From the NCBI GenBank assembly GCA_038134595.1, contig JAYPVM010000005.1, forward strand, positions 21,408 through 85,407: a stretch of 64,000 bases of DNA, read 5' to 3'. Source of the stretch: Pseudomonadota bacterium (lineage in GTDB: Bacteria > Bdellovibrionota_C > UBA2361 > OMII01). The translations under genes were made by a program, and so were the position numbers. Positions 32,160 through 36,629 of this stretch are shown here, piece by piece. Every line of letters starts with the position of its first letter. The stretch's first letter is position 1. The notes beneath the pieces were generated by a model that searched no databases, was not told the DNA's origin, and was given only the letters and a program-made list of their open reading frames with translations.

Positions 32160-32891
32160 TCAATGCCTACCGCCTTCCGTATGGTGCGCAACCGGCTGTG
32201 GCAACAGATTCATGGCTATCGATGCGGGAACAGCAGAAAAGCCAATAAACATTAAGACCGAAACAACCTTTGCGATATTCCTTATCCCGTTATTCCAACT
32301 CGGCGTATCTACTCCTAATGTTTGAAACATACTCCATGTTCCATGATAGAGATGCATCCCCAAAAAACCCATGGCTACAACGTATACAGATGCTATCCCC
32401 CTGTTTTGGAAGGCATTCCATACGTTCTGATATACTTCTCCCTCAACGAACCCCTGAGTATGAACATGCCCTGTCGTGAAATGAAGGATATGAAAAGCGA
32501 TAAACGAAAGGAGAAATAATCCTCCGTACAACATAGTCTTCGAGGCAGCATTTGCTGACCTATAGCGTATGTTATTCCCGGAGATTGGTTTAGCCGCTCG
32601 GTTTAACCTCGCCAACTGAATACCGCTTATGGCGTGCACAAGTAGCGCAACGATAAGAACCGCCCGAACCACCCACAAAACTCCACTGTTTCCGAACATC
32701 TCCGAACCCATTGACCGCAAGAACCTGCCGTAATCGTCAATCTTATAGTCACCAGTTGCAGGGTCAATGCCAGCAAAAATCTTCAGATTACCTACCATAT
32801 GACCAATCACAAAGCCGACCATAATGACGCCACTAAGGGCCATCGAGACCTTTTTGCCGATGGTGGATTTATAAAAGCTTCCTAGAGTCAT
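32160..32891 (-). CDS. sdhC: succinate dehydrogenase cytochrome b558 subunit (Bacillus type, 5 TM)
   Basis: 243 aa. Polytopic, with conserved His in the helices. Gene order sdhC-sdhA-sdhB on the minus strand. Confidence 0.8.
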   Translation of the reverse strand: MTLGSFYKSTIGKKVSMALSGVIMVGFVIGHMVGNLKIFAGIDPATGDYKIDDYGRFLRSMGSEMFGNSGVLWVVRAVLIVALLVHAISGIQLARLNRAAKPISGNNIRYRSANAASKTMLYGGLFLLSFIAFHILHFTTGHVHTQGFVEGEVYQNVWNAFQNRGIASVYVVAMGFLGMHLYHGTWSMFQTLGVDTPSWNNGIRNIAKVVSVLMFIGFSAVPASIAMNLLPQPVAHHTEGGRH

Positions 32892-33205
32892 ACCAACCTA
32901 CTGTCATTTAATGTGTGCGCTAATGAAATCACGCGCCTTGAAGCCGACAACACAGTGCCAAAGATAAGAAATGAAAAGACGCGCCCTTCCCTAGGCACGC
33001 CCCGCAAACGTCCCCTTGGAGAGGCCAACGAGCCCGCACCCCGAATCAAACCCTTCAAGATTACAGGACATTATTCCACATAGACCTCCGGCGCAATAGG
33101 AACAAATTACTTCCAACGCCAACTACAACACTGTTTCTGTTTTTATACTCATAGTTTAGCTTTGTCAGCCCGATAAACCTATGAAACATCGCAAGAATCG
33201 AGGCT

Positions 33206-34495
33206 ATGCGTAAGATATCAATCAAATTAGGAGAGCGAATGGATGGCTCAGCCGAGATTCGCATCGCCCCTGAACAACTCTTTGGGTGCCACTGTGCTAT
33301 ACTCGGAAGCTCGGGGAGCGGAAAAAGCTGGACCCTTGCCCGATGCCTCGAGGAGTCTGCTAACTATGGCTCTAAATTTGTCCTACTTGACGTATCAGGC
33401 GAGTACAGCAACCTCGAGCACCGGACGTTTCACATCCACATCCCAACCACTCACGCGATCACACCCTCATCGGAGAATAGATCAGTGGCCGCGACCATAC
33501 CGTACTATGAACTGACAGAATCAGACCTGTTTTCGATATTCGCGCCTAATGGACCTCTGCAACGCGTAAAACTTAGAGAGGCAATGCGCACTCTCAAGTT
33601 ACTGCAACGAATCCCCCAGCTTGCGGTTAGTGGCGTATTTCCGAAATCAAACAAACTTAAAGCGCCCTATGAAGAGGCGCTCATTGCAGAGTCAAAAAGT
33701 ATCAACCGGCCCGACAGCATTTTTAACGTGTATAACCTTCCAAACCAAATAGCACACGAGTGCGTTGACCCATCTAGAAGCGACGCGGAACAGGGGTACT
33801 GGGGTTCGGTAAATAGCGCAGACCAAACCGAGTGTGCGTCTCTCATCCATAGGATTGACGACCTCTTAAAGCAGGGTACATTAAATTGTATATTTAATCC
33901 TCCCGCTATCCCTAGCGTCTTCGAGGCACTCGAGAAATTCATAACCGATGATACCGTTTCCATTCTAAGAATCTCGCTAGAGGAGCTCCCGATAGCAAAT
34001 GAAGTTCGAACAATCGTTTTAGAAGCCATCGCTCGCACGCTACTATCAATGGCCCGACATAACGAGTTTCGAGAGAGACCAGTAGTCTTGGTTATGGATG
34101 AAGCTCACCAAGCCATTTCCCCGGGGGTGGCCGCCAGACAGCTTGAAACGCCTAAATTCCCTGTATTCGAATCGATTGCCAAGGAGGGAAGAAAATACGG
34201 ACTAACCCTCTGCTTGGCAACCCAACGGCCAGCAGATCTTTCAGATGGCATCTTAACGCAGGTGTCCACTTTTGTCGTGCACCGACTTATCGGGAAAGGA
34301 GACCAGGATTCGGTACAGCACGTATTAGGCGGAGTCGACGCCTCACTGATAAAAAATCTAAGTAAATTACCAAAGGGGAGCGCAATTTTAATAAGTGGTG
34401 GATCGCATACGACCTTGAAGGTAACAAAGCCAGATGTTCCACCTGTATCAAATGGCCCTAATTACCAACAAGCATGGTCCCAATCAAAGCGGTAA
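33206..34495 (+). CDS. HerA/FtsK-superfamily P-loop ATPase (DUF87-like AAA-like domain protein)
   Basis: 429 aa. Walker A AILGSSGSGKSW. Walker B plus DEAH-like VVLVMDEAHQ. Arginine-finger-like LATQRPADL. No partner nuclease or effector gene adjacent. Confidence 0.7.
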   Translation: MRKISIKLGERMDGSAEIRIAPEQLFGCHCAILGSSGSGKSWTLARCLEESANYGSKFVLLDVSGEYSNLEHRTFHIHIPTTHAITPSSENRSVAATIPYYELTESDLFSIFAPNGPLQRVKLREAMRTLKLLQRIPQLAVSGVFPKSNKLKAPYEEALIAESKSINRPDSIFNVYNLPNQIAHECVDPSRSDAEQGYWGSVNSADQTECASLIHRIDDLLKQGTLNCIFNPPAIPSVFEALEKFITDDTVSILRISLEELPIANEVRTIVLEAIARTLLSMARHNEFRERPVVLVMDEAHQAISPGVAARQLETPKFPVFESIAKEGRKYGLTLCLATQRPADLSDGILTQVSTFVVHRLIGKGDQDSVQHVLGGVDASLIKNLSKLPKGSAILISGGSHTTLKVTKPDVPPVSNGPNYQQAWSQSKR

Positions 34496-34594: not shown

Positions 34595-36061
34595 ATGAAT
34601 CCAAGCCTGCTTCAATTAAACACCAGAGTCCTTCTCTCTTCAATAAAACCAAACGCTACCCTTGATGATATTCCCGATAGCTTTCTCCGGCAAATTAACG
34701 TCGATGGATTCGATTGGGTTTGGCTTTTGGGAGTCTGGTCAGTTGGACCGGCGAGCCGTCGCATATCCCGTTCCCGAACTAGTTGGCTAGACGAGTATCG
34801 CAACGCTCTCCCGGATTTAGAAGAGAAGGATATCTGCGGCTCTCCGTTTGCCATTCAAGGATACACTGTTGATCCTTATCTCGGTGGTGAAGACGCGCTA
34901 GCGCGCATACGCTCCCGAATGCGAGCTCTCGACATCAAACTGATGGTTGATTTCATTCCCAATCACATAGGGTTCGACCACCCTTGGATTGCTTCGAACC
35001 CAGAATTTCTCATTAGGGGCACAGAGGCTGACTATTTCACGAGTCCAGACGAATGGGTGCGCTTAGACTCAGGACAAATCTATGCCTATGGCCGGGACCC
35101 TCACTACCCAGGTTGGCCCGATACCTTACAGCTAAATTATTTTAATCCGAACCTGCGTGCCGCCATGCACCAGGAGCTTGCCAGTATCGCTCAGCGAGCC
35201 GATGGAGTTCGTTGCGATATGGCAATGCTTATCGAACCAGAGATATTTACTAAGACATGGCAGAAAGCCTCACCAGAGGAAAGCTTCCCCTCTTTTTGGC
35301 CTTCCGCAATCGAAATGGCGCGAAAAAGGAACCCTTCCTTCCTCATGATGGCTGAAGTGTACTGGAACTATGAATGGAGGCTTCAACAACATGGCTTTGA
35401 CTATGTTTACGACAAGACTTTATACGACCGGATCATCGCCGGCAACGCCGCAGAGATTTATGCTCACTTAACTGCTCCGCTCGAATACCAAAGCAAGCTA
35501 ACTCGTTTTCTAGAGAATCACGATGAAGCTCGAGCTGCAGCGGCTATACCATATGAGCGTTACAACGCTGCTGCCGTTCTTACCTATCTAACACCAGGGC
35601 TTCGCTTGTTTCACGATGGTCAGCTAGAGGGGAAAAAAATCCGAATCCCCGTTCACTTACAAAGAGGCCCTGAGGAAAGAATCGCACCCGACATTGCTAG
35701 GTTTTATGAGAAGTTTTTACCCCTGGTAAACTCTCCTATTAGCAAGCTGGGCAAATGGAGCTTGGTCGAAACAGAAAGTGCCACAAACAAAGACTCGACA
35801 TGCAGCCCAATCATCTCATTTGCACTAACCTCTGATGAGGCCTGCTGGGTCGTCGTGGTCAACTTTACAAATAGTCACCAGTCAGTAACACTGAAGCTTT
35901 CAGGTAATAACCTTTCTTCCGACACTCAAGCTGGCACAAAATTAACTCTAACCGAACTCCTCAATGAAGAGACAGCCCGTCATAGCGTTAATGCAAACAA
36001 ATTAGAGCTTAAGCTCAAACCATGGGATGCTTGCGTGTTCGAAGTCACACTTGATACCTGA
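34595..36061 (+). CDS. GH13 alpha-amylase family glycoside hydrolase (cytoplasmic)
   Basis: 488 aa. GH13 regions DFIPNHIG, GVRCDMAMLIEPE, EVYWNYEW and FLENHDEAR. No signal peptide. Confidence 0.8.
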   Translation: MNPSLLQLNTRVLLSSIKPNATLDDIPDSFLRQINVDGFDWVWLLGVWSVGPASRRISRSRTSWLDEYRNALPDLEEKDICGSPFAIQGYTVDPYLGGEDALARIRSRMRALDIKLMVDFIPNHIGFDHPWIASNPEFLIRGTEADYFTSPDEWVRLDSGQIYAYGRDPHYPGWPDTLQLNYFNPNLRAAMHQELASIAQRADGVRCDMAMLIEPEIFTKTWQKASPEESFPSFWPSAIEMARKRNPSFLMMAEVYWNYEWRLQQHGFDYVYDKTLYDRIIAGNAAEIYAHLTAPLEYQSKLTRFLENHDEARAAAAIPYERYNAAAVLTYLTPGLRLFHDGQLEGKKIRIPVHLQRGPEERIAPDIARFYEKFLPLVNSPISKLGKWSLVETESATNKDSTCSPIISFALTSDEACWVVVVNFTNSHQSVTLKLSGNNLSSDTQAGTKLTLTELLNEETARHSVNANKLELKLKPWDACVFEVTLDT

Positions 36062-36080: not shown

Positions 36081-36629
36081 TTAATGCTCTGGCAGTAAAC
36101 GCTCACCCACGGGGATATCGCTGGAGCTAAAGGACATGTTGAAATCACGCAACTTCTCTGCTCCTAGTAAAAGTCCTAAAAGAGATGCGAACTCTCCCAA
36201 TTTTTCGGAGCCTAAATGCCCAAGCTCTCTTATGTAGAAATCACGCACTTGTAGACTTAACACAGACAGCACCCGCTTAGCTTCATCGGTAATTGAAACA
36301 GTAATAACCCGTCTATCCTCTGTACTTCTTTTTCGAGCCACATAACCAAGTCGATCGAGGCGATCGAGAAGTCGCGTCATGTCCGGCACTTCGGCGATGA
36401 GTTGAGTACTGATATCACCACACGATTGCCCAGTACTATCGGCAGATTGAAGAATACGCAATATGTCATAGGTAGCGGTGGTTAGATCGTACTGACGCAG
36501 TAATCTATTCAACTCAGCCTCTAGCTTCCCCGCACATTTAGCAAGAAGACGATACACCGTCTCCTCTATAGGCTGGTCGCGGTTTGCGATTTCCGATGCC
36601 ACAACCCTCTCCTTTCCGTCTGAGCTCAT
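36081..36629 (-). CDS. MarR-family transcriptional regulator
   Basis: Winged-helix region (TYDILRILQS...GDISTQL...VTRLLDRLDRLGYVARKRSTEDRRV). Start reassigned to an internal ATG (182 aa) with AAGGGG 8 nt upstream. The 245-aa track ORF has an implausible N-terminal extension. Confidence 0.7.
   Translation of the reverse strand: MSSDGKERVVASEIANRDQPIEETVYRLLAKCAGKLEAELNRLLRQYDLTTATYDILRILQSADSTGQSCGDISTQLIAEVPDMTRLLDRLDRLGYVARKRSTEDRRVITVSITDEAKRVLSVLSLQVRDFYIRELGHLGSEKLGEFASLLGLLLGAEKLRDFNMSFSSSDIPVGERLLPEH

What the first reader, a model, noticed from the sequence alone, without database searches (positions are those of the whole stretch)
33206..34495. Stand-alone HerA/FtsK-like (DUF87-type) ATPase with no partner, flanked by sdhC and a GH13 gene
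The protein has Walker A (ILGSSGSGKSW) and a Walker B/DEAH-like box (VVLVMDEAHQ), typical of the HerA/FtsK/VirB4 clade. Members of this clade usually work with a partner (NurA-like nuclease, Sir2/DUF4297 effectors in defence systems, or secretion/conjugation machinery). No nuclease, effector or conjugation gene lies within several kb, and a 314-nt non-coding stretch precedes the gene. It could be an orphaned remnant of a defence or DNA-translocation module, or a lineage-specific housekeeping ATPase.
Basis: partly seen in the sequence, partly recalled or inferred. Interest (0 to 1): 0.5.

Follow-up and report, generated by a model that had tools for sequence, protein, structure and literature searches.

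The report
Partner-less, barrel-less HerA ATPase
This gene encodes a HerA-type motor ATPase whose closest relatives serve in the two-gene SIR2–HerA anti-phage system, yet here it has neither the SIR2 partner nor the domain that partners dock on, and it has been kept as an ordinary, vertically inherited chromosomal gene in one bacterial lineage.

Summary
Window 33206-34495 (+) is an intact 429-aa HerA-family P-loop ATPase with the quoted Walker A and B motifs. It lies divergent to sdhC across a 314-nt gap and 99 nt upstream of a GH13 gene.

Published work shows SIR2, DUF4297 and NurA all dock on that domain.

Its nearest relatives outside its own clade are HerA subunits of SIR2-HerA defence pairs. 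In about 57 fetched loci from many phyla, SIR2 lies directly upstream and the barrel is present. The window gene belongs to a SIR2-less clade found in Bdellovibrionota-type MAGs.

Within that clade, one sub-clade occupies a fixed slot (SNF2-dus-DUF3298-sdhBAC <> herA > GH13; bootstrap 97). HerA divergence there tracks that of its flanks (r 0.75-0.79), and dN/dS is 0.12, like the neighbours. In SIR2-less full-length copies the barrel has drifted (barrel/core identity ratio 0.44 against 0.78). It was deleted without trace in the window's sub-clade (bootstrap 87).

Best reading: a functional, naturally barrel-less HerA ring ATPase working without the canonical effector. Its biological role is unknown. 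New variant of a known kind; moderate interest.

The parts
33206..34495 (+). Barrel-less HerA-family ATPase gene, 429 aa
   Evidence: ORF. Pfam DUF87 E=2.7e-16. PADLOC HerA PDLC04103 E=1.9e-94, matching profile positions 158-576 of 579. AF2 model pLDDT 92.6. Best Foldseek matches are HerA chains of SIR2-HerA and DUF4297-HerA complexes, TM about 0.75 normalised to the query. The start at 33206 is supported by orthologues that begin MRKISIKLG / MSKISIKLG.
33305..33328 (+). Walker A / P-loop, G34-S-S-G-S-G-K40-S41
   Evidence: G34, G37, G39, K40 and S41 are invariant in 112 aligned family members.
33389..33406 (+). D62-V-S-G-E66-Y motif on the strand after the P-loop helix
   Evidence: D62 and E66 are invariant in 112 sequences. 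The motif aligns with DihsEY of the solved HerA 8xau. Whether it corresponds to the nickase determinant D218 of E. coli type III HerA was not verified.
33503..33955 (+). Helical-bundle insertion, approximately residues 100-250
   Evidence: DSSP on the model shows helices 105-112, 117-135, 152-166, 175-185, 204-230 and 238-247 between core strands. This corresponds to the alpha-bundle domain described for Paenibacillus HerA. K122, K147 and K152 are invariant in 32 sequences, and R124 is nearly invariant.
34082..34108 (+). Walker B, V293-VLVM-D298-E299-A-H301 (DEAH-like)
   Evidence: P292 and H301 are invariant and D298/E299 invariant or nearly so.
34175..34231 (+). IAKEGRKYGLTLCLATQRP block (residues 324-342), the most conserved stretch of the family
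   Evidence: A325, E327, G328, R329, K330 and Q340 are invariant, and R341 and P342 nearly invariant or invariant. This block supplied the search patterns. Assigning Q340 as sensor-1 and R341 as the arginine finger rests on my recollection of Iyer et al. 2004 on the FtsK-HerA superfamily; I did not test it.
34430..34477 (+). C-terminal conserved tail, P409...P413-x-S415-x-G417-P418-x-Y-Q421-x-x-W424
   Evidence: P413 and W424 are invariant, and S415, G417, P418 and Q421 nearly invariant. It likely corresponds to the C-terminal hook that docks into the neighbouring subunit in DUF4297-HerA. That correspondence is inferred.
32892..33205 (.). 314-nt gap between divergent sdhC and the HerA-like gene; probable shared promoter/regulatory region; no relic of the lost barrel
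   Evidence: A barrel profile finds nothing in any frame (E>0.5), while positive controls score 1e-12 to 1e-53. No Rfam hit. No sigma-70-like site on the + strand. Short conserved blocks are shared with orthologous gaps, for example around 33047-33078, 33148-33160 and 33171-33183.
32160..32891 (-). sdhC, first gene of the divergent sdhCAB operon; conserved left flank of the slot
   Evidence: Pfam Sdh_cyt. Adjacent to the HerA-like gene in every slot locus.
34595..36061 (+). GH13 alpha-amylase-family gene; conserved right flank, same strand, 99 nt downstream
   Evidence: Pfam Alpha-amylase E=7.3e-13. Adjacent in all slot loci except L005, which has a 657-aa insert. 79 of 80 homologues in metagenomes have no HerA nearby, so it is a syntenic neighbour and not a travelling partner.

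Best explanation
The gene encodes a functional, naturally barrel-less ('delta-HAS') HerA-family ring ATPase that works without the canonical effector partner.

Shown by the evidence:
(1) It is a HerA by sequence and by predicted fold. The RecA-like core, helical bundle, all ATPase motifs and the conserved C-terminal tail are intact.
(2) It lacks the N-terminal beta-barrel. No relic of the barrel remains upstream, and no separate barrel gene exists in the window.
(3) Its nearest relatives outside its own clade are HerA subunits of SIR2-HerA anti-phage pairs. It belongs to a SIR2-less clade found in Bdellovibrionota-type genomes.
(4) Within that clade, the sub-clade containing the window gene sits in a fixed chromosomal slot between sdhCAB and a GH13 gene. 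It co-diverges with its flanks and is under purifying selection as strong as theirs.
(5) In SIR2-less copies that still have the barrel, the barrel has diverged far faster than the core. It was then deleted in the window's sub-clade, and probably a second time independently.

Inferred:
- SIR2 was lost in the ancestor of the clade.
- The barrel, whose documented role is docking SIR2, DUF4297 or NurA, then became dispensable.
- The remaining protein still assembles into a hexamer through the core, the bundle and the C-terminal hook, with a trans-acting arginine. An engineered delta-HAS archaeal HerA keeps its oligomeric state.
- It acts as a self-sufficient, probably DNA-dependent ATPase/translocase, possibly with nicking activity, in a lineage-specific chromosomal role and not as a two-gene abortive-infection system.
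For: Identity and architecture.

Missing barrel: PDLC04103 matches from position 158 in the window protein, from 98 in the SIR2-less full-length form L006, and from 11 in the SIR2-linked L010. The alignment shows short forms starting exactly where the barrel ends. The barrel profile finds nothing in the upstream gaps or anywhere in the window.

Partner: about 57 loci from many phyla have SIR2 immediately upstream plus the barrel, whereas no Bdellovibrionota-type locus has SIR2. The SIR2 profile is negative in the 64-kb window and in 30 SIR2-less loci. Neighbours of SIR2-less copies share no family and match no PADLOC model.

Vertical inheritance: the same gene order holds in relatives 44-81% identical. 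The slot clade has bootstrap 97 and the barrel-less sub-clade 87. HerA distances correlate with GH13 (r=0.75) and SdhC (r=0.79), Mantel p about 0.0005. GC content is uniform and there are no flanking repeats or tRNA.

Selection: dN/dS is 0.118, against GH13 0.135, MgtE 0.106, MarR 0.061 and SdhC 0.052. Catalytic residues are invariant in 112 sequences.

Barrel relaxation: the median barrel/core identity ratio is 0.44 in SIR2-less pairs (n=120) and 0.78 in SIR2-linked pairs (n=1651).

Role of the barrel in the literature: SIR2 docks on the beta-barrels (PMC11472057). The DUF4297 C-terminal domain docks on the HAS domain (PMC11291478). S. solfataricus HerA delta-HAS keeps its oligomeric state but loses NurA binding (PMC3326311).
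Against: In every characterised system, HerA alone is nearly inactive as an ATPase (PMC11291478; PMC13434337). A partner-independent HerA would therefore be unprecedented, and an unlinked or unrecognised partner cannot be excluded.

I could inspect only the 64-kb window and about 8-10 kb around relatives, not whole genomes. All members are MAG or metagenome sequences; no isolate is known and there are no expression data.

Monophyly of all SIR2-less copies has only 67% NJ bootstrap support and the rooting is weak. Loss of SIR2, as opposed to gain in the sister radiation, is inferred mainly from more distant solved HerAs also being SIR2-linked.

The barrel also contacts the neighbouring subunit in the Paenibacillus hexamer, so its loss could weaken assembly. 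No sigma-70-like promoter was found on the + strand of the gap. The pairs in the barrel/core comparison are not phylogenetically independent.
Confidence: 0.6

Rival explanations
1. It is still an immune protein. Either it is a stand-alone abortive-infection ATPase/nickase, or it is the sensor/motor of a defence system whose effector is unlinked or of an unrecognised type and docks somewhere other than the barrel.
For: The best profile matches are PADLOC defence HerA models. The closest relatives outside its own clade are SIR2-HerA subunits. E. coli type III HerA alone has intrinsic nickase activity (PMC13434337), and D62/E66, possibly equivalent to its determinant, are invariant. HerA alone is otherwise almost inactive in known systems, which argues that some partner is needed.
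Against: The gene is not in a defence island. It holds a fixed slot among housekeeping genes across relatives 44-81% identical and co-diverges with them. It evolves no faster than its neighbours. There is no conserved neighbour and no PADLOC hit among neighbours. The docking platform used by all three known partner types is deleted. In type III systems SIR2 is what keeps the HerA nickase silent, so an unrestrained nickase would be expected to be toxic.
Confidence: 0.22
2. It forms a functional operon with the downstream GH13 gene (and, in relatives, the HrpB helicase), so GH13 or HrpB is the new partner.
For: HerA and GH13 lie on the same strand, 48-122 nt apart, in nearly all slot loci. HrpB follows GH13 in L005, L006, L011, L012, L014-L016 and L094. 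No terminator-like site was found on the + strand between HerA and GH13.
Against: 79 of 80 GH13 homologues in metagenomes have no HerA nearby. SIR2-less HerAs that left the slot (L007, L008, L017, L018) did not take GH13 with them. L005 has a 657-aa gene inserted between the two. In the window lineage HrpB is no longer adjacent. No known biochemical logic links a glycoside hydrolase to a HerA ring.
Confidence: 0.07
3. It is a decaying remnant: a 5'-truncated pseudogene left after a SIR2-HerA system broke down.
For: It lacks the first ~130-157 residues of its full-length relatives and has no SIR2. No recognisable promoter was found upstream on the + strand.
Against: The reading frame is intact in seven or more orthologues 46-81% identical, all starting at the same aligned position. 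dN/dS is 0.118. All catalytic motifs are invariant. The predicted fold is confident, pLDDT 92.6. The barrel-less sub-clade is old enough that synonymous sites are saturated between its members.
Confidence: 0.03

Closest known systems
HerA subunit of SIR2-HerA (Nezha) anti-phage systems, specifically the subfamily captured by PADLOC model PDLC04103 (for example Paraburkholderia youngii, locus L010)
   Same: 36-40% identity over the whole ATPase core, helical bundle and C-terminal tail. Walker A, DxxGEY, Walker B, KEGRKYG...ATQRP and the PPxSxGPxYQxxW tail are identical in both. The best structural matches include the SIR2-HerA HerA chains 8wiv/8wld, 8sub and 8j4u.
   Different: No SIR2 gene. 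No N-terminal beta-barrel, which is the SIR2 docking platform. A fixed chromosomal slot with vertical inheritance, where SIR2-HerA pairs are patchily distributed over many phyla and, in the one case examined, lie near an integrase gene. NCBIfam HerA_antiphage scores 128 bits against a cut-off of 800.
HerA of DUF4297-HerA defence systems (PDB 8xau-8xay, 8ziq-8zit, 9c1m)
   Same: 8xau is the top hit by both sequence (E=7e-26) and structure (Foldseek E=1e-23, TMq 0.75). Same RecA-like core, helical bundle and C-terminal hook.
   Different: Only about 21% identity. No DUF4297 nuclease nearby. No HAS barrel, which is where the DUF4297 C-terminal domain docks.
Archaeal/bacterial HerA-NurA DNA-end resection helicase (for example S. 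solfataricus HerA, PDB 4d2i) and its engineered delta-HAS truncation
   Same: Same superfamily and fold. The window protein is the natural counterpart of the engineered HerA delta-HAS, which kept its oligomeric state (PMC3326311).
   Different: About 17% identity. No NurA, Mre11 or Rad50 genes adjacent. The engineered truncation lost partner binding, and the reduced nucleolytic activity noted in that paper's figure legend may refer to complexes made with it. Here a barrel-less form is maintained by selection.
Other FtsK-HerA superfamily pumps: FtsK, VirB4/TraC, TrwB/TraG coupling proteins, CedB/CedD, Mad8 of MADS
   Same: Shared P-loop core. Matches are weak and cover only part of the protein.
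   Different: All of these except Mad8 match only at the P-loop or the C-terminal core and fall far below curated cut-offs (for example VirB4 19.9 bits against 643, TraC 23.3 against 567, CedD 65 against 600). Mad8 has no curated cut-off; it scores 74 bits (E=3.4e-21) over residues 28-406, well below the 315 bits of the HerA model PDLC04103. No secretion, conjugation or division genes are nearby.

Membership tests
HerA family (FtsK-HerA superfamily; Pfam DUF87/PF01935) | P-loop ATPase core with Walker A, Walker B and the family's conserved Q/R block | tested here: met
   GSSGSGKS, VVLVMDEAH and KEGRKYG...ATQRP are present and invariant across 112 relatives. DUF87 scores 60.8 bits against a cut-off of 23.2.
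HerA family (FtsK-HerA superfamily; Pfam DUF87/PF01935) | HerA fold: RecA-like core with inserted helical bundle | tested here: met
   AF2 model pLDDT 92.6, pTM 0.91. All 50 listed Foldseek PDB hits are HerA chains, E down to 1e-23, TMq up to 0.75.
HerA family (FtsK-HerA superfamily; Pfam DUF87/PF01935) | N-terminal HAS beta-barrel domain | tested here: not met
   The profile match starts at position 158 of 579. The alignment shows the protein starting after the barrel. The barrel HMM is negative in the gap and across the window. TM normalised to the targets is only 0.5-0.6.
HerA family (FtsK-HerA superfamily; Pfam DUF87/PF01935) | Hexameric ring with ATP-driven DNA translocation | not testable with these tools
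   Only a monomer could be predicted. Retention of the conserved arginines and C-terminal tail, together with the delta-HAS precedent, makes a ring plausible but does not show it.
SIR2-HerA (Nezha) anti-phage system | HerA of the SIR2-associated subfamily | tested here: inconclusive
   PADLOC PDLC04103 scores E=1.9e-94, and the same model covers a bona fide SIR2-linked HerA end to end. However, NCBIfam HerA_antiphage scores 128 bits against a cut-off of 800, and the gene falls in a separate SIR2-less clade.
SIR2-HerA (Nezha) anti-phage system | Adjacent, usually overlapping SIR2 NADase gene | tested here: not met
   tblastn and a 57-sequence SIR2 HMM are negative in the 64-kb window and in all SIR2-less loci, while controls score 1e-140 to 1e-165. 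The rest of the genome could not be searched.
SIR2-HerA (Nezha) anti-phage system | Barrel platform that docks SIR2 | tested here: not met
   The barrel is absent. Its docking role is taken from PMC11472057.
SIR2-HerA (Nezha) anti-phage system | Accessory, patchy, island-like distribution | tested here: not met
   Fixed slot among housekeeping genes, co-divergence with the flanks, uniform GC, no flanking repeats or tRNA.
SIR2-HerA (Nezha) anti-phage system | Protection against phage | not testable with these tools
   Requires experiment.
DUF4297-HerA defence system | Adjacent DUF4297 (Cap4-like) nuclease | tested here: not met
   None of the Pfam annotations of genes within about 8 kb, here or in orthologous loci, includes DUF4297 or any nuclease.
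HerA-NurA end-resection module | Adjacent NurA, often with Mre11/Rad50 | tested here: not met
   No such families appear among the neighbours. NCBIfam HerA repair-helicase models score 64-67 bits against cut-offs of 800-970.
VirB4/TraC/TrwB/FtsK translocases | Full-length match to the family model and a secretion, conjugation or division context | tested here: not met
   Matches cover only part of the protein. The NCBIfam conjugation/secretion models score far below their cut-offs. TrwB_AAD_bind reaches 21.9 bits against a gathering score of 20.5 for the whole protein, but covers only the P-loop stretch (residues 28-68) and no single stretch passes on its own. TraG P-loop is below its cut-off. 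No such genes are nearby.

The most novel reading that the evidence does not exclude
A HerA ATPase from the SIR2-HerA immune family has been domesticated in a Bdellovibrionota lineage. It would be a partner-independent ring motor with a core cellular role, for example in DNA maintenance. It shed first its effector and then its effector-docking barrel. If so, it would be the first natural delta-HAS HerA and the first HerA shown to work alone. The mirror-image reading, that this SIR2-less chromosomal clade is the ancestral stock from which the mobile SIR2-HerA systems arose, is also not excluded by the weakly supported rooting.
Probability: 0.35. Interest if true: 0.65.

Novelty: new variant of a known kind. 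Interest (0 to 1): 0.45.

Why it matters
Every HerA studied so far (with NurA, SIR2 or DUF4297) is nearly inert alone and is switched on by a partner that sits on its N-terminal barrel.

This clade is a natural experiment. The partner is gone, and the barrel first drifts and is then deleted. The motor core, by contrast, stays under the same purifying selection as succinate dehydrogenase's neighbours, over a divergence deep enough to saturate synonymous sites.

That provides:
- evolutionary evidence, independent of the structures, that the barrel's main selected function in this family is partner docking;
- a candidate case of an immune-system component being retained as an ordinary chromosomal gene;
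- a compact 429-aa HerA core that could be used to ask what a HerA ring can do on its own.

The finding is not categorically new, and its biological role is unknown.

Tried and rejected
1. Looked for a relic of the barrel in the 314-nt gap, to test for a frameshifted or degraded 5' end. A barrel HMM in all six frames of seven orthologous gaps found nothing (E>0.5), while controls scored 1e-12 to 1e-53. There is also no in-frame upstream start.

2. Looked for a split gene, with the barrel encoded separately. The best hit in the window was E=0.9.

3. Looked for SIR2 anywhere in the window or around relatives. Negative.

4. Looked for any conserved neighbour among SIR2-less copies outside the slot. 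The only clusters were HerA itself and a generic ABC ATPase. Pfam and PADLOC scans of immediate neighbours gave only glycosyltransferases, a weak flagellin-like hit and unknowns.

5. Tested GH13 as a travelling partner by scanning metagenomes with a GH13 alignment. Only 1 of 80 loci had a HerA, and that locus is from the same lineage. I had also hoped this scan would show whether the slot is ever empty within the lineage, but it returned only one lineage member, so occupancy remains untested.

6. Rfam on the gap and gene gave only a chance-level IhtA hit (E=0.61, 21 bits against 76). Across the whole window only one tRNA-Leu was found, 13 kb away.

7. The repeat search found no flanking direct or inverted repeats that would mark a mobile element.

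8. dN/dS against more distant orthologues (L001, L004) was unusable because synonymous sites are saturated.

9. I could not map the E. coli type III HerA nickase residue D218 onto this protein, because the paper text does not place it in a motif and I had no sequence.

10. Literature searches for a stand-alone or Bdellovibrio HerA found nothing relevant.

11. The listing of cluster members gave no organism names. The taxon therefore rests on the record titles of the genome scan.
Full report
OBSERVATION. The ORF is real and lies exactly where reported: 33206-34495 on the + strand, 429 aa, ATG start. The quoted motifs are present, ILGSSGSGKSW at residues 32-42 and VVLVMDEAHQ at 293-302. Pfam DUF87 (described as 'Helicase HerA, central domain') scores E=2.7e-16, 60.8 bits against a gathering score of 23.2. 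All other Pfam hits (AAA_22, TrwB_AAD_bind, HerA_C, TraG, Zot) are P-loop-level or cover only part of the protein. sdhC (32160-32891, minus strand) is divergent, leaving a 314-nt gap. A GH13 gene (34595-36061, + strand) follows after 99 nt. GC content is uniform across the window at 0.46-0.50.

Against PADLOC, the protein scores E=1.9e-94 on HerA model PDLC04103, but only over profile positions 158-576 of 579. The same model covers a genuine SIR2-linked HerA (L010) from position 11, and a SIR2-less full-length relative (L006) from position 98. In alignments, the ~430-aa relatives all begin (MRKISIKLG..., MSKISIKLG...) exactly where an N-terminal domain of about 130 aa ends in the ~560-aa relatives. 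So the protein lacks the N-terminal HAS beta-barrel. NCBIfam places it nearest 'anti-phage-associated helicase HerA', but far below the cut-off (128 bits against 800).

STRUCTURE. An AlphaFold2 model built from a 112-sequence alignment is confident (pLDDT 92.6, pTM 0.91). It shows a RecA-like core interrupted by a helical bundle at roughly residues 100-250. All 50 listed Foldseek PDB hits are HerA chains: DUF4297-HerA (8xau and related entries), Paenibacillus and E. coli SIR2-HerA (8wiv/8wld, 8sub, 8j4u), and HerA-NurA (9x1m, 4d2i). TM-scores are about 0.75 normalised to the query but 0.5-0.6 normalised to the targets, as expected if the targets carry extra domains. A sequence search of the PDB agrees: 8xau is best at E=7e-26.

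RELATIVES AND THEIR PARTNERS. A search of 5.8 billion proteins found 661 relatives in two size classes, about 430 aa (P0001-P0025, 46-100% identity) and about 560 aa. A scan of species-representative genomes returned 80 loci. tblastn classification gave a clean dichotomy. About 57 loci from Burkholderiales, Pseudomonas, Xanthomonas, Vibrio, Actinomycetota, Verrucomicrobiota, Planctomycetota, Cyanobium, Methanosaeta and others have a SIR2 gene directly upstream and the barrel present. Every locus from MAGs labelled Bdellovibrionota (or with older proteobacterial labels, or simply 'bacterium') lacks SIR2. One SIR2-linked example, Paraburkholderia youngii, has overlapping SIR2_2 and HerA genes with a phage-integrase gene about 3 kb upstream. 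A SIR2 HMM built from 57 of these proteins, run with filters off, hits nothing at E<=1 in the 64-kb window or in 30 SIR2-less loci, while controls score 1e-140 to 1e-165.

A FIXED CHROMOSOMAL SLOT. Short forms P0004, P0006, P0011 and P0002, and long forms P0029, L012, L014-L016 and L094, all sit in the same arrangement as the window: SNF2 - dus - DUF3298 - sdhB - sdhA - sdhC <> herA > GH13. In many relatives HrpB follows GH13. Their HerA identity to the window is only 43-81%. In an outgroup-rooted NJ bootstrap, this slot clade has 97% support and the barrel-less sub-clade within it 87%. All SIR2-less copies together are monophyletic in the full tree, with 67% support. Across 13 slot loci, HerA-core distances correlate with those of GH13 (r=0.75) and SdhC (r=0.79), both with Mantel p of about 0.0005. 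No tRNA or flanking repeats mark an island. SIR2-less copies outside the slot share no conserved neighbour, and their immediate neighbours match no defence model.

SELECTION. Against the 80%-identical orthologue L091, dN/dS is 0.118. That is the same range as GH13 (0.135), MgtE (0.106), MarR (0.061) and SdhC (0.052). Walker A (G34, G37, G39, K40, S41), D62/E66, H301, A325/E327/G328/R329/K330, Q340, P413 and W424 are invariant in 112 sequences. The gene is therefore not a decaying remnant.

FATE OF THE BARREL. A barrel HMM finds no relic in any frame of the upstream gaps of seven short-form loci (E>0.5; controls 1e-12 to 1e-53). It finds no separate barrel gene in the window (best E=0.9). L019 and L027, in another SIR2-less branch, also lack the barrel. 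That suggests a second loss, although their pairing has only 44% bootstrap support. In SIR2-less copies that retain it, the barrel is far more diverged than in SIR2-linked copies at the same core divergence: at core identity of about 0.55, barrel identity is 0.25 against 0.46. The median barrel/core identity ratio is 0.44 (n=120 pairs) against 0.78 (n=1651). These pairs are not phylogenetically independent, so this is a trend and not a formal test.

WHAT THE BARREL DOES, FROM THE LITERATURE. [quoted passage not shown] It also packs against the neighbouring subunit (PMC11472057). [quoted passage not shown] An engineered S. solfataricus HerA delta-HAS kept its oligomeric state in gel filtration but lost NurA binding (PMC3326311). 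In E. coli type III Sir2-HerA, HerA alone has intrinsic nickase activity (D218) that SIR2 represses, and HerA alone shows no ATPase activity (PMC13434337).

INTERPRETATION. The shown facts are these. The protein is a HerA core without barrel and without SIR2. It is nested among, or sister to, SIR2-linked HerAs. It is inherited vertically in a housekeeping neighbourhood and is under purifying selection. Barrel decay precedes barrel loss. The inference is that, after SIR2 was lost in an ancestor of this Bdellovibrionota-type clade, the docking barrel became dispensable. The remaining core, bundle and C-terminal hook would still form a ring ATPase that acts on DNA without the canonical effector, in a lineage-specific role. 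The main caveat is that no characterised HerA is active alone, so an unlinked or novel partner cannot be excluded without whole genomes.

RIVALS. (a) It is still a defence protein, either acting alone as a nickase or with an unlinked partner. This is plausible from ancestry but is not supported by the genomic context or the rate of evolution (about 0.22). (b) It forms an operon with GH13 or HrpB. This fits the same-strand synteny, but 79 of 80 GH13 homologues lack a HerA, and HerAs that left the slot did not take GH13 with them (about 0.07). (c) It is a pseudogene. This is refuted (about 0.03).

COMPARISON AND NOVELTY. The protein is a member of the HerA family by sequence and by fold, but it fails the family's N-terminal-barrel criterion. 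It fails three of the four testable criteria for a SIR2-HerA system: adjacent SIR2, the barrel platform, and an accessory distribution. It is likewise not part of a DUF4297-HerA, HerA-NurA, VirB4 or FtsK module. Searches of the paper library found no description of a chromosomal, partner-less or barrel-less HerA. At the 50%-identity cluster level, only a handful of the 128 closest representatives are complete barrel-less forms. I rate it a new variant of a known kind, with moderate interest (0.45). It is a clean natural delta-HAS, partner-loss series and a possible case of an immune component being retained as an ordinary chromosomal gene, but its function is unknown and no surprising mechanism has been demonstrated.

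Noticed in passing
L035:241-4718: In another SIR2-less branch (an uncultured Bdellovibrionales MAG), a full-length HerA lies immediately upstream of sdhC-sdhA-sdhB on the same strand, not divergent to it as in the window. HerA-sdh adjacency may therefore be older than the GH13 adjacency, or it may be a coincidence.
   Followed up: partly
L019:9827-11242 and L027:9881-11254: Two SIR2-less HerA genes outside the sdh slot also lack the barrel (at most 60 and 41 open codons upstream, barrel HMM negative). This suggests a second, independent barrel loss, but their pairing has only 44% bootstrap support.
   Followed up: partly
window:24571-27525 (-): A 984-aa SWIM-zinc-finger SNF2 helicase gives very strong PADLOC hits to DpdE and ZorD models (E down to 3e-117). 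It is nevertheless part of the same conserved housekeeping synteny in all relatives, so these are probably generic SNF2 matches and not a defence gene.
   Followed up: partly
window:34595-36061 (+): The GH13 neighbour belongs to a widespread subfamily. More than 500 metagenome stretches matched, the best 80 at 43-51% identity. It matches Pfam Alpha-amylase only weakly (E=7e-13) and no NCBIfam equivalog. The four canonical GH13 regions are visible by eye (DFIPNH, GVRCDMA, MAEVYW, FLENHD). Substrate unknown.
   Followed up: partly
window:37050-38480 (+): A 476-aa ORF with no Pfam or PADLOC hit and a lipoprotein-like N-terminus (LSLGLCAC). It is conserved in the same position in relatives (464-527 aa, also without Pfam hits).
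   Followed up: no
window:36081-36818 (-): The MarR-family ORF is listed as 245 aa, but its orthologues are 181-186 aa. The true start is probably about 60 codons downstream of the mechanical ORF start.
   Followed up: no
window:32924-32939, 32972-32987, 36136-36155, 36232-36247: The short motif TGAAATCACGC(N) occurs twice, 48 nt apart, in the sdhC-herA gap and twice, 96 nt apart, in the MarR gene region. It could be an operator for the nearby MarR regulator, or it could be chance.
   Followed up: no
window:33047-33078, 33148-33160, 33171-33183: Blocks in the sdhC-herA gap are conserved with orthologous gaps of loci whose proteins are only 50-80% identical. They are candidate promoter or regulatory elements for the divergent genes. 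No sigma-70 consensus was found on the + strand.
   Followed up: partly
L005:9411-11384: In one short-form relative, a 657-aa gene with no significant Pfam or PADLOC match is inserted between the HerA-like gene and GH13.
   Followed up: partly
L065, L085, L086 (HerA core match): Three SIR2-linked HerA matches contain in-frame stop codons in the tblastn-defined core. They may be pseudogenised defence copies or assembly errors.
   Followed up: no
window:33206 vs 33239: The public gene call for the identical sequence (P0001, 418 aa) starts at Met12. Orthologues begin MRKISIKLG / MSKISIKLG, and a GAGG lies 3 nt upstream of 33206, so the longer 429-aa form is favoured.
   Followed up: yes
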